In this document: positions 2,835-27,454 of the stretch, in pieces
Numbering within the stretch: position 1 is the stretch's first letter
How the letters are laid out: every line of letters begins with the position of its first letter
Virus record (IMG/VR): IMGVR_UViG_2703718832_000003
Source: a virus
Taxonomy: Duplodnaviria; Heunggongvirae; Uroviricota; Caudoviricetes
Length of the DNA: 45,125 nucleotides
Reading direction: 5' to 3' (one strand)
Notes under the pieces: model-generated
Databases searched by the model: none
Told to the model about the DNA's origin: nothing
What the model saw: the letters and a program-made list of their open reading frames with translations, nothing else
Made by a program: the position numbers and the translations under genes

Positions 2835-5741
2835 TTATGCCTGAGTACGCAGCGCTTCAAGGCGGCGCAGGTCGAAGTCGTTCAGTTCGTCGGTGTAGTC
2901 AGCAGTGATTGGCGCTGGCCATTCACCTGTGTCGAATCCGGTTGCGATATTGCGCATCGCTTTGCGGTACTCGAGCATACCCAGCTCCAGTAGTTCAGCG
3001 GATGCCTCGATGATGGCGATCCAGTGGTAGTTCTCGTCTTTGTTGACGAAAATCCAGAAGAACTGATCCAGCGCTGCGGTTTCGCAGTACATAGCCGCGC
3101 TCAGGTGATAATCACGTTCAATAATTTCCCGGTGTAGCCTGGCGCGCAGGCTTTCCTGCTTAACATTCCACATGCTGATGGTTTTCAGGTCTGCACCTAT
3201 ACGCACGCCATCCAGGTCGATCTCAAGGTCAGGGCGCACACGAACTTCCAAGCCCGTCTCCTCGTCAAAACCAAAGTAGCTCACCTCAACGGCTCGGCTA
3301 GGGTGGGTCAGCAGCATGCCGGCGGTCGGGTGTGCCAGAAGCGCTTTTTGAATATTCAGCGCGGTGCTCAGCTGCTGGCGGGTGACCAGCACTTTTCCTT
3401 CCGGGTTATCGCGCCAGGCATCCAGCAGTTCGTCGGCAAATACGGCATCTGGTTTGACTGCCTTCACGGCCTGGATCATGTCTGCTTTGGTACCGGACAC
3501 TTTCAGTGGTGCCGGTTTCTGTGCTTCCTGAGCCACAAGGTCAGGGTTGATGATTGCCAACTGCTCCAGCAGCGCGTCACGGCTGCCGCTGGTTTTAACC
3601 GGCGGCGGCAGGGTGGCGTTGTACTCTTTAATGCATGCCTTCATTGCCGTCGCCGTCTGCTTCTGGTCACCATCAATACGCTGGAAGTCAGCTGGCAGCG
3701 CCATATAGTTCTGTGCCGTTTCTTCCAGGTTAGCGCCAAGCGGAACCTGCGGCGGCAGGGTGGCGTTGTACTCTTCCAGTAACACCTTGATGTCGTCGGC
3801 AGACAGCAGCGCCGGCAGGCTGGCATTGTGCTCATCGATAAAGGCGCGCAGGGTCGCGGCCGTTGTGAATGCGCCTTCAGGGATCACCGGTTCAACGCTG
3901 AATTCTGCGTCCAGTAGTTCAGGCTGCAACGCCAGCGCATGCACCAAGTTGCCCATGTCCAGCACCGCTGAGCGCTCTTTGACGATGGTTTTCTCTACGT
4001 GGCGCGCATTGAAGTACATCAGCGAAACGCGCGCATCTTTCACCTGGGTTGAGCTGATGCCGTTGGCGGCGTGGTAAACCTCGTTTGGCAGCCCTTCATA
4101 GCGGCCTGGCTCGAAATAAGCGGGATAAACAACAGCTGGTTCGTCAGATTGCGCTTCTGGCTCGGTTTGTGCTGCAACTGGTTCGGTTTGGCTTACAGAA
4201 TCGCTATTTTTGGCGACAGAATCCGTATTCTGGTCTACATCGTCCTTCTGGCTGGTATCTGACTCTTCACCAGACTCCAGACTGCTTTCGCCTGGCTGTA
4301 CTTCATCACCAGCTTGTTTTTCATCACTGACAGTTTCTTGAACCTGCACATTGCTGGTGGTCTCCGTAGCCTTTTTCGTGCCATGAGTTGCTGAGTTCTG
4401 CAGCAAAGCCGTAACGTCGAATATTCCGTTGCCGACATTTTTAACCAGTTCTTGTTCGACTTTCTGCGGTTGTGCTGCCGCTTCCTCTGCGCGGCGGCGT
4501 GCTCCTTCTTCACGCACGCGTTGCAGGTTCTCTTCGTGAGTGCAGAAGGATTTGCGCGGAGACTCCTTACCTTCAGGTTGGGGAATTTCCTGTGCTGCGG
4601 GTTCAGCCTCATGCAACGGCAATAACTCGACCGCGGAATTGAACGCGGCTGTCATGGTCTGGTTAACAAATTCCAGGTGAGCGACAGGAGTTAAATGAAT
4701 ATTTTCCGGTGCGATACGTACCAGGTTAAAAATAGCCGTGCGGTTAACACCCAGAACGCCTGGCTGATTGCGCAGGATGTTGCTCCATGATTTCCATGGT
4801 TCTTCTTTTTTGGTCACGATTTCTTTAGCGCGACGAAGAATGCTGCCCGGGATCTCGAAGTGGTTGAAGTCCATAGGCAGAAGGGCACACGCAATCTCTA
4901 AATCGAGAGTGTCCAGTGTGTGGTGTGCGTCAGGTCCACGGTCAGTGACGTAACCGCCGTCGGCATTAGTGCCGGAATCAGTACGCTGCACACTACTGAT
5001 GCGATTACCGGCGGCCCATTCACGCGCCAGGATGCCACGGTCAATGTAATCAGTCGCCGCCCACATTCTGGTGAAACGGAGTACCAGCGCGAGTTCGTGA
5101 CGCTTGTCCTGGCTGAACACTTTGCGAATGGCATCGGTGTAGCGCCACAGGTCTTTGGTGTCGTAACCCTTCACTTCCGGGCAGTTCTCAGCAGCTAACA
5201 GCAAGTTCTGGACGTAACTGTTATCAGTGTCCATCTCCAGCGCGCCGATAGCTTCGTACTCTTCGTGGGTTACGTGGTGGCGCAGTTCGTCGGCGGTGAA
5301 CTGGGAAAGCAGTTGCTTACGAAACGGCATCTGCACTACCGGGTAGAGGGTTGAGTCGTCGTCGTGTTCGTCCAGCGTGATGCCAGCGGTTTCTGGCAGC
5401 GTTGACTCAGTAGTTATGTGACTATCAACGGTCTGAGCCGTTTTCTCGTCAGAGTTTTCAGCTGTGACTTTTGGCAGCCAGGTGCGCCCATCGTCCTGAA
5501 GCTCGTAGCGATCACACCAGGTAAAATCAACTTCACCTTCTTTCGGCAGGCCGTCGACAACTGGGAAATCAGTGCGAATCGGTTTGGCGTAGTCCTTACC
5601 CCGACCTGTTTCGATACCTGCATCTTCCAGCGCAACATCCAGCATCAGATTGGCGCGAGCCTCGGTTTTAGCAGTGAACCAGACCACTGCATCTTGCTTT
5701 CCGGATTTCTGAGTGGCTTTAACCACATTAAAGAATTCCAT
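2835..5741 (-). CDS. recE: RecE-like exonuclease VIII (long N-terminal region plus C-terminal nuclease domain)
   Basis: 968-aa ORF directly upstream of recT; long acidic/Ser-rich disordered middle region and conserved-looking C-terminal domain, as in Rac-type RecE. Contains an internal repeat encoding EYNATLPP twice. Confidence 0.65.
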   Translation of the reverse strand: MEFFNVVKATQKSGKQDAVVWFTAKTEARANLMLDVALEDAGIETGRGKDYAKPIRTDFPVVDGLPKEGEVDFTWCDRYELQDDGRTWLPKVTAENSDEKTAQTVDSHITTESTLPETAGITLDEHDDDSTLYPVVQMPFRKQLLSQFTADELRHHVTHEEYEAIGALEMDTDNSYVQNLLLAAENCPEVKGYDTKDLWRYTDAIRKVFSQDKRHELALVLRFTRMWAATDYIDRGILAREWAAGNRISSVQRTDSGTNADGGYVTDRGPDAHHTLDTLDLEIACALLPMDFNHFEIPGSILRRAKEIVTKKEEPWKSWSNILRNQPGVLGVNRTAIFNLVRIAPENIHLTPVAHLEFVNQTMTAAFNSAVELLPLHEAEPAAQEIPQPEGKESPRKSFCTHEENLQRVREEGARRRAEEAAAQPQKVEQELVKNVGNGIFDVTALLQNSATHGTKKATETTSNVQVQETVSDEKQAGDEVQPGESSLESGEESDTSQKDDVDQNTDSVAKNSDSVSQTEPVAAQTEPEAQSDEPAVVYPAYFEPGRYEGLPNEVYHAANGISSTQVKDARVSLMYFNARHVEKTIVKERSAVLDMGNLVHALALQPELLDAEFSVEPVIPEGAFTTAATLRAFIDEHNASLPALLSADDIKVLLEEYNATLPPQVPLGANLEETAQNYMALPADFQRIDGDQKQTATAMKACIKEYNATLPPPVKTSGSRDALLEQLAIINPDLVAQEAQKPAPLKVSGTKADMIQAVKAVKPDAVFADELLDAWRDNPEGKVLVTRQQLSTALNIQKALLAHPTAGMLLTHPSRAVEVSYFGFDEETGLEVRVRPDLEIDLDGVRIGADLKTISMWNVKQESLRARLHREIIERDYHLSAAMYCETAALDQFFWIFVNKDENYHWIAIIEASAELLELGMLEYRKAMRNIATGFDTGEWPAPITADYTDELNDFDLRRLEALRTQA

Positions 5742-5881
5742 GTGAGATCCTCATTTTTGGGTGTTAGAATCCCCGGACCATTGATAGCGCCCATTGGGTT
5801 AACTTTGGTTTTAATGTTGTTTCCGGTGTAACTTTGGTCGGTGAGGCCGGACATGGCGGGCCCACTTCGGTGGGCTTTCGC

Positions 5882-6169
5882 TTAACTGACGGCTACGATC
5901 GCCTCATTCATAAAATCTTGCTTGTATGTACGGTAGGTTCCCCAGCCGGCGTAATCGCTATCGCTGATTTTGAGTACCAGCAAGCTGATCTCCTCAATGG
6001 CGCAGTGCGGGCAATCAAACTTGCCAAGCACATAGCCACCGTCGAGAATGACTGTTGTTTCACCGTTTGTAGTTGAGTGAATAACGCCTGATACTTTCTT
6101 CTCGCAGTTGAATGCAGCCACTTCTTTATTCACTGCTTTCAGGTTCATTTCGATTTTTACGATTTCCAT
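5882..6169 (-). CDS. Hypothetical phage protein
   Basis: 95-aa ORF in the leftward early operon; no recognisable motif. Confidence 0.4.
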   Translation of the reverse strand: MEIVKIEMNLKAVNKEVAAFNCEKKVSGVIHSTTNGETTVILDGGYVLGKFDCPHCAIEEISLLVLKISDSDYAGWGTYRTYKQDFMNEAIVAVS

Positions 6170-6254
6170 AAAATCTCCAGTTGTTAAATTAAGGGTGTAA
6201 GAAGCCGCGCCAAATTAATGGCGAATTTTTCATTTCATATTTCAGGACTGCTAT

Positions 6255-6413
6255 TTAACTTTCGTTCGCCATCTGGTCGTATTCAGCGCATTGCTTAGAG
6301 CAATATTCTTTTTCTTTCTGTGCCAGTTGCGAACCGTTGAGATAGAGCAAGGTGCTCTTTACTTCTGCGCCTTCTTCAACAGGCTTGTGGCAATAACCAC
6401 ATTCTTTTTTCAT
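6255..6413 (-). CDS. Small Cys-rich (zinc-ribbon-like) protein, about 52 aa
   Basis: Not in the ORF track (under 60 aa). Read by eye on the minus strand: MKKECGYCHKPVEEGAEVKSTLLYLNGSQLAQKEKEYCSKQCAEYDQMANES, with an AGGTG RBS upstream and two CxxC-like pairs. Confidence 0.3.
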   Translation of the reverse strand: MKKECGYCHKPVEEGAEVKSTLLYLNGSQLAQKEKEYCSKQCAEYDQMANES

Positions 6414-6446
6414 CACCTGTCCTTAAAGTGTTTTGGCAACTCTCCG

Positions 6447-6653
6447 TTAATGGCTGAGGCCATTCCCCAGACCGTTCAGATAAACTTCAACCAGCAAATC
6501 CCTGGTGTAAGTCATCTCAACGCCGCGATGCAGATACAAACGACCACGAGCATTAGCTGATGCCGTCCAGGTTGAATCCTTGTGTTTGACGAGCATCCCC
6601 GGCTGAACTGCGCCGCGGTTTACTGTCTGTGTACCGTAGTGCTGGTTTACCAT
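6447..6653 (-). CDS. Hypothetical small protein
   Basis: 68-aa ORF in the leftward operon; weak evidence beyond ORF length and orientation. Confidence 0.3.
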   Translation of the reverse strand: MVNQHYGTQTVNRGAVQPGMLVKHKDSTWTASANARGRLYLHRGVEMTYTRDLLVEVYLNGLGNGLSH

Positions 6654-6817
6654 GATTTCCTCTTGGCCTTATCGCGGCGAACGGAACGGTTAATACAAGA
6701 CTTCAACGCATTTATTCAGTGTTTCAATGGGCGGTGGATGGCCGCCGGTTGTCATAAATGGGCAGACTCGAAAATCTGCCTATGTATGGCCGATAAAAAA
6801 CCCGCCGTTGCGGGTCT

Positions 6818-7138
6818 TCAGAAATAGTCTTTGTGGTCTTGCATCGCTCGCTCGAGGATTACCTTTGCATCTTCAAAGCTGGCAGATTCAAAAGCCTCTC
6901 TTATGGCCTTAGCCAGGCAAGTCGCATCGCTTTCATAGTCATCAGCTCTGCTTTCCCAGTTTGATGCCTCTTCTTCAGCCTCATAAAGGCGATCGCCATA
7001 CTCGCACTCGAGTTCCTGGCGCACTTCATCACGAAGCTTCTCCTTGATGATTTCGGAGGCTTCTTCAATCGGCATTGTTTCCAGAATCGTCTCTGGCTGA
7101 TGAGTGCCGTATTTCAGTGAGATGTCAGTAGCAAACAT
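6818..7138 (-). CDS. Acidic hypothetical protein (about 106 aa from the RBS-supported start; track start at 7255 is the alternative)
   Basis: In-frame ATG at 7136-7138 preceded by a strong GGAGG RBS; product is Glu/Asp-rich. The longer 145-aa version from 7255 has no obvious RBS but is preceded by the repeated 17-mer hairpin. Confidence 0.4.
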   Translation of the reverse strand: MFATDISLKYGTHQPETILETMPIEEASEIIKEKLRDEVRQELECEYGDRLYEAEEEASNWESRADDYESDATCLAKAIREAFESASFEDAKVILERAMQDHKDYF

Positions 7139-7302
7139 GCAACCTCCAAAAAAATGCCCGCGCGCTGGCGGGCCAAGAAGACTTTTCCAATCCAACCAGA
7201 ACAGGATCATCGTCTCCTGTGTGGTTGAGATGGCAGTATTACCATCACCAAGCATCGGCGTCCGGTGCTTGAGGCTGGCGCTGTCGTTACCCGCTGATGC
7301 GG

Positions 7303-7491
7303 TTATGTCTCATCGACGCATGGAAGTGATTTCCAGTCGATATCGTTTTTTGCCGAATCCCACAGGCCTTTCTTTTTGTACTTTTCTGAGCATGGAATGC
7401 AGATGTTGTAAGGCCTGCCAACCATGTTTACAGATATTCTCTGCATCTCTTCAGATGCCAGAAAGTACCCACAGAATTGACACTTGTGCAT
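7303..7491 (-). CDS. Small Cys-rich (zinc-finger-like) protein
   Basis: 62-aa ORF MHKCQFCGY...CIPCSEKY with CxxC...CxxC; GGAGAG RBS upstream; first gene downstream of the putative PL region. Confidence 0.45.
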   Translation of the reverse strand: MHKCQFCGYFLASEEMQRISVNMVGRPYNICIPCSEKYKKKGLWDSAKNDIDWKSLPCVDET

Positions 7492-7910
7492 ACGTACTCT
7501 CCACTTAGTTACCCGCTGATGCGGGAGAAATGCTTTGGCGATGTGGTAGGTGGGAGACCCATTTCGACCCGATTCGGCCTACTTATCTTCGGCAATAGCT
7601 CCTCGGGCCTCGCCGCTTTACGTGCGACATATTCCCGTCCATGAACCCTTCACCACATCCCATAACATTCCCTGTATTGGTCAGCGCCAACTCCCTGCCA
7701 GTGTTGCCCGTTCTCACGCCGTTCTCGCTCTCGCGCGGGGATACTCTCTCACCGACCGGATCGCACCCGGTGATACAGCACGTTTACGTGTAGGGGTCTT
7801 AACAGGTCATTGACGCTGTAAATCTGCATGTTGTTAAAAAGCAGGCGACTTGCTGTCCGCCGCTGGCTAACTTCGCTCAGCTGTCGATGTTTCGTTTCGA
7901 TGGATTAAAG

Positions 7911-7949
7911 ATAACCTTAGTTATGAGTGATGGCAATAACCTAATTTAT
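7911..7949. promoter_or_regulatory. OL-like operator region: two ATAAC-N5-TTAT sites (7911-7924 and 7936-7949)
   Basis: Same 14-bp site architecture and roughly 25-bp centre spacing as the three sites between cI and cro; AT-rich promoter-like sequence around it; positioned like lambda PL/OL. Confidence 0.4.
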
Positions 7950-8030
7950 AATTATCATCACATAAGTTATAATGCACTGATAGCTAAATGAATTTATTTT
8001 TGTAAAAAATGTGGCGGGGGGGGATTTCTG

Positions 8031-8057
8031 GCAATAAAAAACCCCGCAATGCGGGGC
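8031..8057 (-). terminator. Intrinsic terminator ending the cI / rex-slot operon
   Basis: Minus-strand transcript folds as GCCCCGC-AUU-GCGGGG (stem 8042-8047 with 8051-8056) followed by a U-run (plus-strand A-run 8032-8041); lies 20 nt downstream of the 8076 stop. Confidence 0.6.
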
Positions 8058-8075
8058 TTTCAATCAAGGTGGGGT

Positions 8076-8765
8076 TTAGAAATAACCACTGTCTTTGCAG
8101 ACGGATAGCGTTGACAGGGTCTCGGCATCATCTCCGCCCATACCAATAAAGCCAGCGTGAGGTTTGCCATTGTTGATAAGCATGACCATGAAAGGAGTGT
8201 TTCCAGCATAGCCGCCATATGAGTTTTTGGAATTAACCAGGCCGCAGTAAGCGCCTTTCCCGTTGCTCACAAACTTAGAGTGCTTGAATCTGGCACTTTC
8301 TGGATCCTTCAATTGGTCTTTCACTGCTGCCTCAACAGCATTTATCTCCTGCTTCGTGAGAGACCTATATTTCCAGGCAGTTGCCGGTTTGTCGTTATCT
8401 GAATTGTTCGGCGATGGACTAACATCAATGCAGTTGGCCCATTGCTCAGTAATTCGAGCAATTCGGTCAGAGATAGCGAAATCAGTTTTAGAAAGGCTTG
8501 CCGCGAACACTTTTGTCTTGTCGTCAAGAAAAAGCATTCCATTTTTTTGTTCACTGATTATTGGTGAAATGATCACACCACCATTTGGACGTGTGGCTTT
8601 AAAGGATTTTCCATCAAATTCGACAGTGCCTTTTCCGCCAGGAATCATTGGAGCATTAGCTCCATTACTGATGTCCGACTTAGCGTAATCGCAGCTCAGG
8701 GTGCTAGAGCCGATTGCGTTCGTAGTTAAAGCCAGTAAAGATAATGCTATTAGTTCTAATTTCAT
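8076..8765 (-). CDS. Secreted/periplasmic protein of unknown function in the rex position (lysogenic-conversion or exclusion candidate)
   Basis: 229-aa ORF with an N-terminal signal peptide (MKLELIALSLLALTTNAIG...) and four Cys; starts 14 nt after the cI stop with a GAGGGAAGG RBS, so co-transcribed with cI; followed by a terminator; appears lower in G+C than its neighbours by eye. Confidence 0.6.
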   Translation of the reverse strand: MKLELIALSLLALTTNAIGSSTLSCDYAKSDISNGANAPMIPGGKGTVEFDGKSFKATRPNGGVIISPIISEQKNGMLFLDDKTKVFAASLSKTDFAISDRIARITEQWANCIDVSPSPNNSDNDKPATAWKYRSLTKQEINAVEAAVKDQLKDPESARFKHSKFVSNGKGAYCGLVNSKNSYGGYAGNTPFMVMLINNGKPHAGFIGMGGDDAETLSTLSVCKDSGYF

Positions 8766-8779
8766 CCCTTCCCTCTTGA

Positions 8780-9484
8780 TTACCAGATAGTAGATGTCCA
8801 GAACATGCGACCAATAATCTCTACGCTCTCGATATCCGCTTCTTCATCAGGATACTCTTCACTGTTGAAGCTGCGAATCACGATGCGGGTAGGACTCACA
8901 CGATAAATGGATTTTAGCCTTTTCCATCCGTCCTGGCTTATTGCATAAACCTTGCCATCAACGATCTTTTTGTCGTTCGTGTTGATGGCGACCGTCGTCC
9001 CTTCCGGGATCATGGGCTCCATGCTATTTCCTGATGCCGGGAAGCACAGCACGCTATCTTTCTGGGCTCCCACCTTACGAAGGGTAGACTTCGCAAAACG
9101 AAGTTTGAATCCGTTATAGTCATCTTCCAAGCAGGAACCATCACCACACGCAAGTTCTATGTCTTTCAGATATGGCACTTCGACCTCGTCATCTGGCAGA
9201 TCTGTTTTGCTATCCCAAGCGTCAACTTTACCCCATTCCGATTCTGGTGGGATAGCGGAGTCCTTGCGTCCTTCGTCCTGCATTGAGCCTATGCCCGAAC
9301 TGAGCCATTCCGGACGCACGTTCAATGCATGAGCAAGCTCAACCATCTTACGGCTGCCTGTGGTTTTGCCTGATGTCATTTTCTGAATTGCAGGTTGAGA
9401 TATGCCGACTTTCTCAGCCAGCTGCCCTTGGGATATGCCTGCGGCTCTCATAGCCGCGTTGAGTCGATCTGCGAATGTTTTCAT
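8780..9484 (-). CDS. cI: CI-type prophage repressor (N-terminal HTH plus C-terminal S24 LexA-like autopeptidase)
   Basis: 234-aa ORF; N-terminal HTH (GISQGQLAEKVGISQPAIQKM); C-terminal S24 motif FPASGNSMEPMIPEG with downstream Lys; divergent from cro across an operator region. Confidence 0.9.
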   Translation of the reverse strand: MKTFADRLNAAMRAAGISQGQLAEKVGISQPAIQKMTSGKTTGSRKMVELAHALNVRPEWLSSGIGSMQDEGRKDSAIPPESEWGKVDAWDSKTDLPDDEVEVPYLKDIELACGDGSCLEDDYNGFKLRFAKSTLRKVGAQKDSVLCFPASGNSMEPMIPEGTTVAINTNDKKIVDGKVYAISQDGWKRLKSIYRVSPTRIVIRSFNSEEYPDEEADIESVEIIGRMFWTSTIW

Positions 9485-9495
9485 AGCGCCAATAT

Positions 9496-9558
9496 ATAAC
9501 TCAGGTTATGCAGAGTAAAATAACAAAGCTTATGGACAATGGTCATAACTTAGGTTAT
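9496..9558. promoter_or_regulatory. OR-like operator/promoter region: three ATAAC-N5-TTAT sites (9496-9509, 9520-9533, 9545-9558)
   Basis: Three near-identical 14-bp sites (ATAACTCAGGTTAT, ATAACAAAGCTTAT, ATAACTTAGGTTAT) with centres 24-25 bp apart in the 110-bp cI-cro intergenic region; tripartite architecture as in lambda OR1-3. Confidence 0.55.
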
Positions 9559-9594: not shown

Positions 9595-9822
9595 ATGAAC
9601 AAAGTTATTCAACGAGCTTTAGAAATCGTTGGCAGCCAGAAGCGACTCGCAGATATTTGCGGCGTTAGCCAGCCAGCGGTTCACAAGTGGCTTAACGGTG
9701 GTTCCGTATCTCCGGAAAAAGTAACAGCCATCGTAAACGCTACTGGTGGCGAGATTAAGGCACACGAAATTCGACCTGATCTTCCCGACCTGTTTCCACA
9801 CCCAGAGAACCATGCCGCTTAA
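9595..9822 (+). CDS. cro: Cro-like HTH regulator
   Basis: 75-aa ORF divergent from cI; HTH segment QKRLADICGVSQPAVHKWLNG. Confidence 0.7.
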   Translation: MNKVIQRALEIVGSQKRLADICGVSQPAVHKWLNGGSVSPEKVTAIVNATGGEIKAHEIRPDLPDLFPHPENHAA

Positions 9823-9851: not shown

Positions 9852-10394
9852 ATGCATTCACTTGCGTATCAACACAATACCGGAATACACCCGGGAGCGA
9901 TGATAAACCGCGCTCAACCTAAGGCGGCGCCAGACCACGAAAAGATCCGCGATGCGGTCCGGGCATGGTCGTCGGCGCTGGACAATCAGGACGTCGTTTC
10001 GGCGCTGATCATCAACGAATACCGGGAGCAGGGCGGGAACGCCATCAGCTTTCCGGAAGACATCAGCCGGGCGCGGCAGAAGCTATTTCGCTTTCTGGAT
10101 AACCGCTTCGACTCTGAGCAGTACCGCGAGAACGTGCGCCAGCTGACGCCCACAATCATGGCCGTTTTGCCGCTGGAGTATCGCCATCGACTTCTTCCAG
10201 AGGACAGTTTTATGTCCCGCTTAGCTCGACTTGAGAAAGAAACGAGCGAGGCGAAAGTGGCCGTTGCGATGAACGCCCCGCGTCACCAGAAGCTCAAGGA
10301 ACTCAGTGAGGGGATTGTAGAGATGTTCCGTGTCGACCCGGATCTGACCGCGCCGCTGATGGCTATGGTCACTTCGATGTTGGGGGTTATGTGA
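9852..10394 (+). CDS. YdaT-like / CII-position regulatory protein (hypothetical)
   Basis: 180-aa ORF immediately after cro, in the position of lambda cII / Rac ydaT; family assignment is from memory of sequence pattern only. Confidence 0.35.
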   Translation: MHSLAYQHNTGIHPGAMINRAQPKAAPDHEKIRDAVRAWSSALDNQDVVSALIINEYREQGGNAISFPEDISRARQKLFRFLDNRFDSEQYRENVRQLTPTIMAVLPLEYRHRLLPEDSFMSRLARLEKETSEAKVAVAMNAPRHQKLKELSEGIVEMFRVDPDLTAPLMAMVTSMLGVM

Positions 10395-17743: not shown

Positions 17744-18508
17744 ATGAACCTTGAAAACACAGTGAAATACCACTTCGCGAAGTCAACGATGATTAGCGAC
17801 TCTCCACGCGCGACAGCATCTGACTCATTAACCGGCACTGACATTATGGCGGCGATCGGAATGACACAGAGCCGTGCTGCTCTCGGGTTCAGTGCATTCC
17901 TAGGAAAGATGGATATCAGTGATTACGATCGCGAGCGAGCGATTGATTTGCTGACAAAATATGCAATTGAGCACTGCGATAAGGTTGCTGCCTTACGCAA
18001 GCTTGAGAGTGATGTTAAGCCAAAGGTAATGCAAGTTCTCGCAACTTTCGCCTTTGCTGATTACTCCCGGAGTGCGGCCAGCACCAGAACGTGCGACTGC
18101 TGCCATGGAAATAAGTTTGTCGAAGCTGAAGTAATGACGATGAAGCATATCGGACAGCCACACCTTAGCGAAAAAAGAGAGATGGTTAAGGTGCTTTGCC
18201 ACAAATGCAAAGGGAAGGGTGCTCTGACCAACGCATGCCAGTGCAATGGCAAAGGAACAGTATTAGACAAAGAGAAAACTATTCTACAGCGCGGCGTTCC
18301 TGCATATAAAACCTGTACGCGCTGCAATGGGCGTGGTTATGCCAGATTGCTACCTGATAGCGTCCGTAAATACATCTGCGTAACGGTGATGGATATACCT
18401 GAAACCACGTGGCGCAGGTCTTACAAGGATTTTTTCGAAAGTCTGGTAGGTGAGTGCATCAAGCAGGAAGAGTACGCAAACCAGATGTTGAACAAAGTCA
18501 CGCGATAG
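17744..18508 (+). CDS. Q: Late-gene antiterminator Q
   Basis: 254-aa ORF immediately upstream of a promoter-terminator pair and the lysis genes; Cys-rich zinc-binding region (CDCCHGNKF...CHKCKGKG...CQCNGKG...CTRCNGRG). Confidence 0.7.
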   Translation: MNLENTVKYHFAKSTMISDSPRATASDSLTGTDIMAAIGMTQSRAALGFSAFLGKMDISDYDRERAIDLLTKYAIEHCDKVAALRKLESDVKPKVMQVLATFAFADYSRSAASTRTCDCCHGNKFVEAEVMTMKHIGQPHLSEKREMVKVLCHKCKGKGALTNACQCNGKGTVLDKEKTILQRGVPAYKTCTRCNGRGYARLLPDSVRKYICVTVMDIPETTWRRSYKDFFESLVGECIKQEEYANQMLNKVTR

Positions 18509-26130: not shown

Positions 26131-27454
26131 TCTTCCGCATATTGCCAGTATGGCCTTTAATGAGCCGCTGATGCTTGAACCCGCCTATGCGCGGGTTTTC
26201 TTTTGCGCGCTGGCTGGCCAGTTGGGCATCACCCGGCTGACAGATACCGTCTCTGGCATCACGCTTGATGCCGGACAAATAGCCGAACCGCTGGCGCTGT
26301 TTGGTGAGGATGATGACATGGATCCCCGTCCATCACGCAGCTATCAGGTGGCAAATGGTATCGCGGTCTTGCCGGTTTCCGGCACGCTGGTCAGTAAAAC
26401 CCGTGCGCTTCAGCCTTATTCCGGCATGACGGGTTACAACGGGATCATTGCTCGCCTGCAGCAGGCAATCAGTGACCCCGGCGTTGACGGCATTCTTCTG
26501 GATATGGATACGCCGGGTGGAATGGTGTCCGGGGCGTTTGACTGCGCCGACATTATAGCCCGTATGCGCGATATCAAACCCATCTGGGCGCTGGCCAATG
26601 ACATGAACTGCAGTGCAGGGCAGCTTATAGCCAGTTCGGCATCGCGACGGCTGGTCACACAAACGGCCAGAACCGGCTCCATTGGGGTCATGATGGCGCA
26701 CAGCAACTATGGCGCTGCGCTCAAAACTAACGGCGTTGAGGTCACGCTGATTTACAGCGGCGATCGCAAGGTCGACGGCAACCCTTACGAAAAGCTTCCG
26801 AAAGATGTGCGTGCTGATTTCCAGACGCGTATCGATGCCACTCGTCAGATGTTTGCCGAAAAGGTTTCCGCTTATACCGGCATGTCTGTTCAGGACGTGC
26901 TGGACACCGAAGCGGCAGTATTCTCCGGCCAGGAGTCTTTGGATAACGGACTGGCGGATGAACTTGTTAACAATACCGATGCGCTCGGCGTGATGCGCGA
27001 AGCACTCGACAGACGCAAAAAAACAACCCTTGGAGGAACTATGCCATCACCTTCTGCTTCAGCTGTGACCACTAAGCCAGTTGACCAGGCAGCAACTCAG
27101 ACAACTGCCTCAGCTGAACAGGTCACTACCGTTGACACGACCATTGCTTCCGTAGCGGCCCCTGTAGATGTCAGTGCGCAGGTTACTGCAGCAGTAGCTG
27201 CAGAGAATAGCCGCATCATGGGCATCCTGAACTGCGATGAGGCTAAAGGGCGTGAGTCACAGGCGCGAGCACTGGCCGAAACGCCGGGTATGACGGTAGA
27301 GAGCGCACAGCGCATTCTGGCTGCTGCACCGCAAAGTGCCCAGGCGCGTACCGATACGGCGCTGGATCGTTTGATGGAAACAGCACCCGGTGCACTCCCA
27401 GCAGGTAGCGCATCTTCTGATGCCGCTGACGATTTGTTAAACACCCCCGTTTAA
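26111..27454 (+). CDS. C: Prohead protease / scaffold (lambda C / Nu3-like, S49 family)
   Basis: 447-aa ORF; ClpP/S49-like N-terminal part and Ala/Thr/Gln-rich scaffold-like C-terminal part, as in lambda C with nested Nu3. Confidence 0.8.
   Translation: MAHELRNLPHIASMAFNEPLMLEPAYARVFFCALAGQLGITRLTDTVSGITLDAGQIAEPLALFGEDDDMDPRPSRSYQVANGIAVLPVSGTLVSKTRALQPYSGMTGYNGIIARLQQAISDPGVDGILLDMDTPGGMVSGAFDCADIIARMRDIKPIWALANDMNCSAGQLIASSASRRLVTQTARTGSIGVMMAHSNYGAALKTNGVEVTLIYSGDRKVDGNPYEKLPKDVRADFQTRIDATRQMFAEKVSAYTGMSVQDVLDTEAAVFSGQESLDNGLADELVNNTDALGVMREALDRRKKTTLGGTMPSPSASAVTTKPVDQAATQTTASAEQVTTVDTTIASVAAPVDVSAQVTAAVAAENSRIMGILNCDEAKGRESQARALAETPGMTVESAQRILAAAPQSAQARTDTALDRLMETAPGALPAGSASSDAADDLLNTPV

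What the first reader, a model, noticed from the sequence alone, without database searches (positions are those of the whole stretch)
7492..7910. About 400-nt leader with no convincing ORF between the OL-like operators and the first leftward gene; no obvious N-like antiterminator
In lambda, PL is followed within about 100 nt by nutL and the N gene. Here the first credible leftward ORF begins about 420 nt downstream of the operator sites and encodes a zinc-finger-like peptide rather than an N-like protein. The intervening G+C-rich sequence holds only short ORFs, one with an Arg-rich peptide (MDGNMSHVKRRGPRSYCRR). Early antitermination may use a different mechanism, such as an RNA element or a very small peptide.
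Basis: inference. Interest (0 to 1): 0.4.

Follow-up and report, generated by a model that had tools for sequence, protein, structure and literature searches.

The report
N-less PL leader with conserved RNA
The long untranslated stretch after this prophage's leftward early promoter is the phage phi80-type "nutL" leader, and it carries a host-factor binding site (boxA) joined to a conserved, folded 136-base RNA that occurs in many enterobacterial prophages lacking any lambda-type N protein, so it is a good candidate for an RNA-based way to read through terminators.

Summary
PL sits at 7908-7936 (-), flanked by three operator repeats. About 410 nt of non-coding leader follow before the first ORF, a 62-aa Cys4 peptide (7303-7491). 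No N homologue exists in the window.

The leader is not anonymous. Positions 7908-7508 are 99.8% identical to the phi80 PL-N leader, whose "nutL regulatory signal" was mapped there in 1985. In this phage the phi80 "N" gene is replaced.

Inside the leader I found a discrete module:
- an rrn-like boxA (7843-7831);
- a 136-nt multi-helix RNA domain (7818-7682).

The module occurs once per phage, always just after PL. It is present in more than 115 viral contigs and in prophages of at least 8 genera. Covariation is strong: 90-93% of cells are paired, against 25-43% when partners are slid. It has no coding signal and no Rfam match.

The genes downstream are highly diverse. None of 127 loci has a lambda/HK97/HK620-type N. 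Sibling phages HK639 and CobraSix carry a put-type antiterminator RNA in the same slot.

Best reading: a cis-acting, boxA-linked antitermination RNA that works without a lambda-type N. The function is inferred, not shown. The small Arg-rich peptide and the Zn-ribbon ORF are unlikely antiterminators.

The parts
7911..7970 (.). OL: three 14-bp operator repeats (7911-7924, 7936-7949, 7957-7970)
   Evidence: Pattern ATAACNNAGGTTAT gives 12 matches against 1.8 expected. The same repeat occurs three times at OR, 9496-9558.
7908..7936 (-). PL promoter (-35 TTGCCA, 17 nt, -10 TATCTT); transcription start about 7901
   Evidence: Promoter scan. Same position as the annotated phi80 pL -10 and the HK639 'putative pL'.
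7858..7907 (-). First ~50 nt of the transcript, shared with phi80, HK639, CobraSix and BHUENT3, whatever module follows
   Evidence: blastn: 96-100% identity to HK639, CobraSix and BHUENT3 over 7913/7920->7858.
7844..7861 (-). G+C-rich stem-loop GGCGGACAGCAAGUCGCC directly before boxA (rrn-like order). It scores as terminator-like together with the U-run of boxA. It is not well conserved.
   Evidence: Terminator scan. Relatives show uncompensated changes or a different hairpin.
7831..7843 (-). boxA, UGCUUUUUAACAA. The family consensus is YGCU-N-UUUAACAA; the E. coli rrn boxA is UGCUCUUUAACAA.
   Evidence: Annotated as 'nutL boxA' in phi80 JX871397. Nearly invariant in all 31-65 aligned homologues. 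It is the only boxA-like site in the early region of the window.
7682..7818 (-). Conserved structured RNA domain. P1 7818-7810/7690-7682; P2 7806-7801/7699-7694; P3 7796-7794/7709-7707. P3 encloses three hairpins.
   Evidence: RNAalifold consensus, covariance model R1 and pair counts. 90-93% of cells are paired against 25-43% when slid. 15-21 of 36 pairs change on both sides.
7779..7790 (-). Hairpin Ha, CACG-UAAA-CGUG. This is the 'nutL core' of the phi80 annotation.
   Evidence: Mapped from JX871397. Stem pairs covary: A-U/G-C 16:14 and G-C/A-U 14:11. The loop varies (UAAA, AAAA, AGAAA, CAAA, UUAA).
7750..7772 (-). Hairpin Hb, a 9-pair stem with one G-G mismatch and an invariant CGAUC loop
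   Evidence: 99% of cells are paired. 5 of 8 counted pairs change on both sides. The Serratia and Providencia versions differ at most stem positions yet still pair.
7719..7738 (-). Hairpin Hc. The inner stem CGC-GAGA-GCG has a GNRA-type loop. The outer stem is weakly supported. One subclass replaces it with a simple hairpin.
   Evidence: Inner helix 94-100% paired with G-C/A-U changes. Outer helix only 67-79% paired.
7528..7672 (-). Long irregular hairpin forming the 3' part of the leader. 7662-7533 is homologous to the segment directly upstream of N in HK97/933W-type phages. It contains the Arg-rich uORF (7642-7583).
   Evidence: blastn 91% to HK97 26435-26564, which ends 18 nt before the HK97 N start. 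Fold z = -2.3. GAUGUGGU/ACCACAUC in the window becomes GGUGUGGU/ACCACACC in HK97.
7508..7525 (-). Hairpin motif CCCGCAUCAGCGGGUAAC, copy 1, at the end of the leader
   Evidence: Read from the sequence. The 30-nt segment 7537-7508 is 97-100% conserved in phi80, HK639, CobraSix, BHUENT3 and KO-TP1, in front of different genes.
7303..7491 (-). 62-aa Cys4 zinc-ribbon-like ORF. It is an accessory cassette, not an N analogue.
   Evidence: PHROG 19863, function unknown. Homologues in mEp213 and Louie lie directly after a genuine N gene. In E. coli KL53 it lies between this leader and the phi80 'N' gene.
7286..7302 (-). Hairpin motif CCGCAUCAGCGGGUAAC, copy 2, directly after the 62-aa ORF
   Evidence: Direct repeat of 7508-7524.
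7146..7173 (-). Strong intrinsic terminator GCCCGCCAGCGCGCGGGC + AUUUUUUU (tL1 equivalent), between the 62-aa ORF and the rest of the leftward operon
   Evidence: Terminator scans.

Best explanation
The 400-nt leader is a mosaic of four modules.
1. PL plus a ~50-nt initial transcribed region.
2. A small hairpin, an rrn-type boxA and a conserved 136-nt multi-helix RNA domain.
3. A long hairpin inherited from the N-leader of HK97/933W-type phages. It is probably an RNase III-type processing or translation-control structure.
4. A short hairpin that marks a gene-cassette boundary.

Module 2 is the functional heart. I propose it is the cis-acting antitermination (nut-type) signal of the leftward early operon. 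Host NusB/S10 would bind boxA on the nascent RNA. The folded domain next to it would take the place of the boxB-N protein pair and hold the elongation complex in a terminator-resistant state. That state would carry RNA polymerase through the intrinsic terminator at 7173-7146 and on to kil, recET and xis.

Shown: the module exists, is a structured RNA on the leftward strand, and is always just downstream of PL. It is independent of the downstream gene and mutually exclusive with recognisable N genes in this sample. It lies within the fragment mapped as nutL in phi80.

Inferred: it causes antitermination, it uses Nus factors, and it needs no phage protein.
For: 1. Identity with phi80. 7908-7508 is 99.8% identical to phi80. 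GenBank M11919 maps a 'nutL regulatory signal' to bases 661-938, which equals window 7880-7603 and contains the whole module. JX871397 annotates boxA and a 'nutL core' there.

2. Structure. 90.4% of cells pair on a MAFFT alignment and 92.9% on a model-fitted one, against 25-43% when partners are slid. 15 and 21 of 36 pairs change on both sides, against 1-10 when slid. Conserved U-G and G-U pairs exist only on the leftward strand.

3. Not coding. Variable columns fall 36/37/34 by codon phase. No frame stays open across homologues.

4. Distribution.
- More than 115 IMG/VR contigs.
- Prophages of Serratia, Providencia, Xenorhabdus, Arsenophonus, Kluyvera, Citrobacter and Enterobacter.
- In Providencia and Xenorhabdus it sits just after a cI-like repressor gene.

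5. One copy per phage, on the PL side only.

6. Downstream genes are dozens of unrelated families. 0 of 127 loci carry a lambda/HK97/HK620/Erwinia/Hafnia-type N. Control loci without the element do carry one.

7. HK225 is an isolated phage whose deposited complete-genome annotation carries the module but has no N gene annotated, and no N homologue is detected by tblastn.

8. HK639 and CobraSix share PL, the first 50 nt and the terminal hairpin. In the slot between, they carry an annotated putL-like antiterminator RNA.

9. Terminators. 56 of 89 distinct downstream regions have a strict sense-strand intrinsic terminator within 2.5 kb, against 18 of 89 on the antisense strand. In the window the only strong terminator between the early promoters and Q is on the PL side.
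Against: - No experiment on this sequence is available to me. The 1985 phi80 work named a 98-aa downstream protein 'N', which implies a trans-acting factor was thought necessary. I could not read that paper.
- rrn-type boxA complexes are known (my knowledge) to counter Rho-dependent termination, not strong intrinsic terminators such as the one at 7173.
- The single-sequence fold is not unusually stable (z = -1.6).
- Covariation comes from a few clades. The structure was partly derived from the same sequences.
- The outer stem of Hc and the outermost P1 pairs are weakly supported.
- HK225 has a chimeric P1 3' strand, yet it was isolated as a phage.
- A partner protein encoded elsewhere in the phage or host is not excluded.
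Confidence: 0.5

Rival explanations
1. It is a conventional, protein-dependent nutL. The structured domain, or its Ha hairpin, is the binding site of the phi80 98-aa 'N' protein. This prophage and HK225 have lost that gene, so the site is an orphan and leftward transcription is largely stopped at tL1. Lytic growth is unaffected because the rightward operon has no strong terminator before Q.
For: phi80 records annotate the downstream gene as N and the region as nutL. In E. coli KL53 the 62-aa cassette sits between the leader and an intact phi80 'N', so the window looks like a later deletion. No + strand terminator of note lies between cro and Q.
Against: Only 11 of 127 loci with the module carry the phi80 'N' family. 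That family matches no Pfam N model. It also occurs without the module in Salmonella, Erwinia, Hafnia and Vibrio phages. In the Erwinia and Hafnia phages it lies downstream of a genuine lambda-like N, whose C-terminus is RQK(I/M)RGKSIPLI. High conservation with covariation across 8 or more genera is not expected of orphan sites.
Confidence: 0.2
2. The domain is a structured leader with a different job. Candidates are shielding a long untranslated RNA from Rho or RNases, an RNase III/E processing signal, a sensor (riboswitch-like) or a protein-binding site that sets the level of early-left expression. It would not make polymerase processively terminator-resistant.
For: The leader is long, G-rich and untranslated. 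boxA/Nus complexes are known to protect untranslated RNA from Rho (my knowledge; background in PMC5725501). The sequence immediately 3' of P1 is not conserved, so there is no local expression platform.
Against: The lack of a conserved expression platform argues against a classical riboswitch. The slot is occupied by a proven type of antiterminator RNA in sibling phages. Sense-strand intrinsic terminators are enriched downstream. There is no Rfam riboswitch or ribozyme match.
Confidence: 0.2
3. A protein or peptide encoded at the start of the operon is the antiterminator. Candidates are the 62-aa zinc-ribbon protein and the 19-aa Arg-rich leader peptide.
For: The 62-aa ORF occupies the N position and has a good ribosome-binding site. 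The peptide is Arg-rich like an N ARM.
Against: The 62-aa family occurs in only 4 of 104 loci with the module. In other phages it follows a genuine N. The peptide segment is also present upstream of genuine N genes in HK97/933W-type phages. Its reading frame is not conserved, and many module-bearing loci lack it.
Confidence: 0.05

Closest known systems
phi80 nutL / PL-N leader (Tanaka & Matsushiro 1985, GenBank M11919; Rotman et al. 2012, JX871397)
   Same: The same sequence: 99.8% over 401 nt. The annotated boxA, 'nutL core' and mapped nutL fragment all fall on the module described here.
   Different: In the window the phi80 'N' gene is absent. It is replaced by a 62-aa cassette and a different downstream gene. 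OL/PL are of HK639 type rather than phi80 type. The phi80 annotation describes a boxA and a 12-nt 'core', not a 136-nt folded domain.
Lambda-type nut sites (boxA-boxB) with N protein
   Same: Position just downstream of PL. There is a boxA, and a small A-rich-loop hairpin (Ha). The presumed task is to read through tL1.
   Different: There is no 15-nt boxB at the usual ~8-nt spacing. Ha is 41 nt from boxA, has only 4 pairs, and its loop varies in length and sequence. There is no ARM-bearing N, no nutR copy, and a much larger conserved structure.
put RNAs of HK022 / HK639 (protein-independent antiterminator RNAs; PMC9378689)
   Same: A cis-acting structured RNA right after PL in a lambdoid phage without N. 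It occupies the same mosaic slot as putL in HK639 and CobraSix, which share the flanks.
   Different: There is no sequence or covariance-model similarity to the HK639, CobraSix or HK022 loci. The module is about twice as long and forms a junction rather than two stem-loops. It is always joined to a boxA, which put lacks (my knowledge). There is a single copy, with no putR equivalent.
rrn operon antitermination leader (boxB-boxA-boxC with NusA/B/E/G, SuhB, S4; PMC6614797)
   Same: A near-consensus rrn boxA (UGCUCUUUAACAA in many members), a hairpin before boxA in the window, and no dedicated phage protein.
   Different: The upstream hairpin is not conserved. No conserved boxC exists. The 136-nt domain has no counterpart in rrn leaders. 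rrn complexes act mainly against Rho (my knowledge), whereas the terminator here is intrinsic.

Membership tests
phi80-type PL leader / nutL region | Sequence identity with the phi80 PL-N intergenic region, including the annotated boxA and core | tested here: met
   99.8% over window 7908-7508. The annotated features map to 7843-7835 and 7790-7779.
phi80-type PL leader / nutL region | Followed by the phi80 98-aa 'N' gene | tested here: not met
   Homology ends at 7508. tblastn of phi80 N against the window finds nothing.
Lambda-type N/nut system | boxA on the nascent RNA just downstream of the early promoter | tested here: met
   UGCUUUUUAACAA at 7843-7831, conserved in all homologues.
Lambda-type N/nut system | boxB: a ~15-nt hairpin with a GNRA-like pentaloop a few nt 3' of boxA | tested here: not met
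   The nearest 3' hairpin (Ha) is 41 nt away and has a 4-bp stem. Its loop varies between 4 and 5 nt and in sequence.
Lambda-type N/nut system | An N protein with an arginine-rich motif encoded downstream | tested here: not met
   No tblastn hit for seven N proteins. No Pfam N36 or N_peptide hit in the leftward ORFs.
Lambda-type N/nut system | A second site (nutR) downstream of PR | tested here: not met
   No second boxA in the early region. No second copy by nhmmer or cmsearch. The cro-cII gap is only 29 nt.
put antiterminator RNA (HK022/HK639) | Sequence or structure similarity to known put RNAs | tested here: not met
   Model R1 and nhmmer find nothing in the HK639, HK022 or CobraSix loci. 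There is no visible similarity to the annotated HK639 putL.
put antiterminator RNA (HK022/HK639) | Paired putL and putR copies | tested here: not met
   A single copy per phage.
put antiterminator RNA (HK022/HK639) | Acts in cis on RNA polymerase (beta' zinc-binding domain) without any protein factor | not testable with these tools
   This needs reporter assays in rpoC mutants or in vitro transcription.
rrn-type antitermination leader | Consensus boxA preceded by a hairpin and followed by a GU-rich boxC | tested here: inconclusive
   boxA is met. The upstream hairpin is present in the window (7861-7844) but variable in relatives. A GU-rich run (GGGAUGUGGUG, about 7657-7647) lies in a segment that many relatives lack.
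Any Rfam 15 family | Covariance-model match at or near the gathering score | tested here: not met
   No match in 7492-7910 at gathering threshold. Only chance-level hits at E up to 10.

The most novel reading that the evidence does not exclude
boxA plus the 136-nt junction RNA is a third kind of phage early antitermination device. It would be an RNA that replaces the N protein itself, assembling with host Nus factors on boxA and making RNA polymerase processively resistant to intrinsic terminators. It is spread by mosaic exchange through prophages of many Enterobacterales. These include phi80, HK225 and the TL-2011c/P13374/PA2 group of Stx2a phages, none of which has a recognisable N. A corollary is that the phi80 'N' gene is not the antiterminator.
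Probability: 0.3. Interest if true: 0.8.

Novelty: new variant of a known kind. Interest (0 to 1): 0.6.

Why it matters
Early antitermination is the switch that commits a lambdoid prophage to expressing its delayed-early genes. Only two solutions are established: the N protein with boxA-boxB, and the put RNAs of HK022-like phages.

Many sequenced lambdoid phages have no recognisable N. The default guess in the literature is "maybe put-like" (for example PMC12315714). Here a defined, alignable RNA module with a boxA accounts for a large group of such phages. The group includes the laboratory contaminant phi80 and the Stx2a phages related to the 2011 O104:H4 outbreak phage.

The module gives a direct handle: a 175-nt fragment that can be tested in a reporter. 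If it works without phage proteins, it would show how an RNA can stand in for N inside a Nus-factor complex. If it needs a partner, its diversity of neighbours makes that partner an interesting unknown.

It also questions whether the gene called N in phi80 is really an antiterminator.

Tried and rejected
1. Rfam at gathering score and at E up to 10: nothing in the leader. The only hit in the window is isrB, elsewhere.

2. A missed N gene. tblastn with seven N-type proteins and Pfam scans of all small leftward ORFs found none.

3. The 62-aa Zn-ribbon ORF as an N analogue: rejected on context.

4. HK225_041, a 70-aa basic protein that replaces part of the leader in HK225, as a hidden N: rejected. 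Its homologue in mEp213 follows a genuine HK620-type N.

5. A protein gene on either strand of the conserved domain. Spurious antisense ORFs do cluster in 64-70 loci. There is no codon periodicity and no conserved frame.

6. A second, rightward copy of the element (a putR/nutR analogue): none in the window. Only 3 of 64 relatives have a boxA plus small hairpin between cro and cII.

7. A universally co-occurring partner protein within about 5 kb: none found beyond ordinary lambdoid neighbours (Kil, YdaT-like CII, two cI types).

8. The alternative register for hairpin Hb proposed by RNAalifold: rejected, because it fails in the Serratia and Providencia sequences.

9. Reading 'GGCGCUGAC' at 7689-7681 as a decayed P22/HK97-type boxB. 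It is better explained as the 3' strand of P1, which covaries with its partner.

10. Literature. The phi80 genome paper (PMC3510586) and the 1985 Gene paper are not held. Searches for N-less Stx phages and boxA-only antitermination gave nothing specific.

Full report
**1. What is at the coordinates**

The window is a lambdoid prophage.
- cI is at 8780-9484 (-) and cro at 9595-9822 (+).
- A YdaT-like cII is at 9852-10394 (+), and a Q antiterminator at 17744-18508 (+).
- A 14-bp operator repeat occurs three times on each side of cI, 12 matches against 1.8 expected.
- At OL it overlaps a -35/-10 promoter reading leftward, 7936->7908.

From there to the first ORF with a ribosome-binding site (ATG 7491) is about 415 nt. 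That ORF encodes 62 aa with two CxxC pairs and belongs only to a PHROG of unknown function.

**2. The leader is the phi80 leader**

Positions 7908-7508 are 99.8% identical to the PL-N interval of phage phi80.
- GenBank M11919 (1985) marks a 'nutL regulatory signal' that corresponds to window 7880-7603.
- The 2012 genome record marks a boxA (window 7843-7835) and a 12-nt 'nutL core' (window 7790-7779).

Homology stops exactly where the phi80 98-aa 'N' gene would begin.

The leader as a whole is a mosaic:
- The first ~50 transcribed nt are shared with HK639, CobraSix and BHUENT3.
- 7843-7527 is shared at 95% with PA2-type Stx2a phages, and 7843-7656 at about 94% with TL-2011c- and P13374-type phages.
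- 7662-7533 is shared at 91% with the stretch immediately upstream of N in HK97/933W-type phages.
- A 30-nt hairpin segment (7537-7508) recurs in front of unrelated genes.

**3. No N**

tblastn with lambda N, HK97 N, two mEp213 N proteins, Erwinia Eho59 gp50, Hafnia yong1 gp20 and phi80 'N' finds nothing in the window. It also finds nothing in the complete genome of HK225, the closest isolated relative, which shares 5468-7536 at 98.6% identity. Pfam N36 and N_peptide models do not match any leftward ORF. HK225's deposited complete-genome annotation lists a Q gene but no N.

The 62-aa ORF is not a substitute.
- Its homologues in mEp213 and Louie sit directly after a genuine N, which matches Pfam N36 at 1.7e-26.
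- In E. coli KL53 it lies between this same leader and an intact phi80 'N'.
- It is bracketed by a 17-nt direct repeat of the hairpin motif (7524-7508 and 7302-7286).

It looks like an inserted cassette.

The Arg-rich uORF lies in the HK97/933W-type segment. It is found upstream of real N genes and has no conserved frame or length.

**4. A conserved structured RNA**

123 of the 137 loci held at that point, reference phage loci included, show extended homology.

A gapped pattern on one genome per species found the element in Serratia, Providencia, four Xenorhabdus, Arsenophonus, Kluyvera, Citrobacter and several Enterobacter genomes. One further hit was a chance tRNA match.

Homology consistently runs from boxA to about 7682 and then breaks. 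This defines a module of boxA (7843-7831) plus 136 nt (7818-7682).

The sequences support the following structure:
- a closing helix P1;
- a second helix P2 with two invariant U-G pairs;
- a CCC/GGG helix P3;
- three hairpins inside P3:
  - Ha, the 'nutL core', with an A-rich loop;
  - Hb, with an invariant CGAUC loop;
  - Hc, with a GAGA tetraloop (replaced by a plain hairpin in one subclass).

| Measure | MAFFT alignment (31 sequences) | Model-fitted alignment (45 matches) |
|---|---|---|
| Cells that form a standard pair | 90.4% | 92.9% |
| Same, with 3' partners slid | 25-43% | 26-43% |
| Pairs (of 36) changed on both sides | 15 | 21 |
| Same, with 3' partners slid | 1-8 | 1-10 |

Caveats:
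- The structure was partly read from these sequences.
- The changes come from a handful of clades.
- The outer stem of Hc and the outermost pairs of P1 are weak.
- The single-sequence fold is not exceptional (z = -1.6).

Variable columns show no codon periodicity (36/37/34), and no frame stays open in either strand. No Rfam family matches.

**5. Context of the module**

- It occurs once per phage.
- In Providencia and Xenorhabdus it again lies just after a cI-like repressor gene.
- The first genes downstream fall into dozens of unrelated clusters: Rha-like in about 21 loci, phi80 'N' in 11, the 62-aa ORF in 4, and many singletons.
- None of 127 loci carries a lambda/HK97/HK620/Erwinia/Hafnia-type N. 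Six control PL regions without the module do carry one.
- No protein within about 5 kb co-occurs universally.
- Strict sense-strand intrinsic terminators lie within 2.5 kb downstream in 56 of 89 distinct loci, against 18 of 89 on the other strand.
- In the window the convincing terminator is at 7173-7146 (-). The rightward operon has none of comparable quality before Q, and it has no boxA.
- HK639 (annotated 'putL-like antiterminator RNA') and CobraSix share the promoter, the first 50 nt and the terminal hairpin with the window. They carry the put-type RNA where the window carries boxA plus the domain.

**6. The phi80 'N' family**

This family matches no Pfam N model. It occurs in Salmonella, Erwinia, Hafnia, Morganella, Pseudomonas and Vibrio phages. 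The four of these that I checked with the model (Salmonella, Erwinia, Hafnia, Vibrio) lack the module. In Erwinia Eho59 and Hafnia yong1 it lies two genes downstream of a protein with the lambda-N C-terminal motif RQK(I/M)RGKSIPLI. So the family is not tied to the module. Outside phi80 it is not the N of its phage. Whether it contributes in phi80 cannot be decided here.

**7. Interpretation**

The most economical reading is that boxA plus the domain is the antitermination signal of the leftward operon. It would be a nut-type site in which a large RNA structure stands where boxB and N stand in lambda. It is exchangeable by recombination with put modules.

- Direct support is limited to the old functional mapping in phi80.
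- The rest is comparative inference.
- The main rival is that it still needs a phage protein: phi80 gp45 or something unrecognised. In that case this prophage carries an orphan site.
- A second rival is a non-antitermination role for the structure, such as Rho or RNase shielding, processing or sensing.

The 3' third of the leader (7672-7528) is a separate long hairpin shared with N-leaders of other phages. By analogy with the lambda N leader (my knowledge), it is probably an RNase III-type or translation-control element. One compensatory change against HK97 supports the stem.

**8. Verdict**

The region is already annotated as nutL in phi80. The folded domain, its breadth and its independence from any N gene are not in Rfam or in the papers I could search. 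I rate it a new variant of a known kind, interest 0.6.

Noticed in passing
window 5783-5880 (+): Rfam isrB (Hfq-binding sRNA of Salmonella islands) matches at 38.2 bits (gathering score 35, E 0.002). It ends in a terminator hairpin, lies between recE and the next leftward ORF, and is antisense to the PL operon.
   Followed up: no
window 7286-7302 and 7508-7524 (-): A 17-nt direct repeat containing the hairpin CCGCAUCAGCGGG brackets the 62-aa ORF. The same motif ends the leaders of phi80, HK639, CobraSix, BHUENT3 and KO-TP1 in front of unrelated genes. It may be a cassette or recombination boundary, or a processing site.
   Followed up: partly
window 8038-8765 (-): A 229-aa protein with a lipoprotein-like signal sequence (MKLELIALSLLALTTNAIGSSTLSC...) sits between cI and OL, in the rexAB position. 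A strong terminator follows it at 8060-8038. It looks like a lysogeny-expressed moron. It has PHROG matches only, function unknown.
   Followed up: no
L154 1942-2791 (Erwinia phage Eho59); L155 2010-2800 (Hafnia phage yong1): Homologues of the phi80 'N' protein lie downstream of genuine lambda-like N proteins in the same operon. The phi80 'N' family is therefore probably not an N family. The phi80 annotation 'similar to lambda N' is not borne out by Pfam.
   Followed up: partly
L116 5785-5850 (+); also L096 5452-5512 (-), L076 5343-5403 (+): A few relatives have a consensus boxA (CGCUCUUUAACAAU) followed by the hairpin CUGGCUGA-GUUA-UCAGCCA between cro and cII. This is a nutR-like site although no N gene was found. 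The window has only 29 nt there.
   Followed up: partly
L004 about 3870-3990 (-) (phage PA2); same in L011 (TL-2011c): In these Stx2a phages the leader contains a near-consensus promoter (TTGACT-17-TATATT). About 80 nt later comes a strong terminator (AGACGCGCCAGCGUCUUUUUUU), before the Rha-like first gene. It looks like a small-RNA gene inserted into the PL leader.
   Followed up: no
window 7681-7689 (-) versus HK97 (L006 about 2150-2180): The 3' strand of P1 (GGCGCUGAC) is identical to the 5' half of the HK97/P22-type boxB (GCGCUGACAAAGCGC) at the equivalent place in the HK97 leader. This is either a recombination micro-homology or a trace of common descent.
   Followed up: partly
L003 4645-4337 (HK225): HK225 is chimeric within the module. 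It has a class-1 5' part but a 3' strand of P1 resembling the divergent subclass. P1 is therefore poorly paired, yet HK225 was isolated as a phage.
   Followed up: no
window 7858-7907 (-): The first ~50 nt of the PL transcript are 96-100% conserved among phages that then carry quite different leader modules (put-type, boxA-domain or other). This suggests a function of its own, such as a promoter-proximal pause or a stability element.
   Followed up: no
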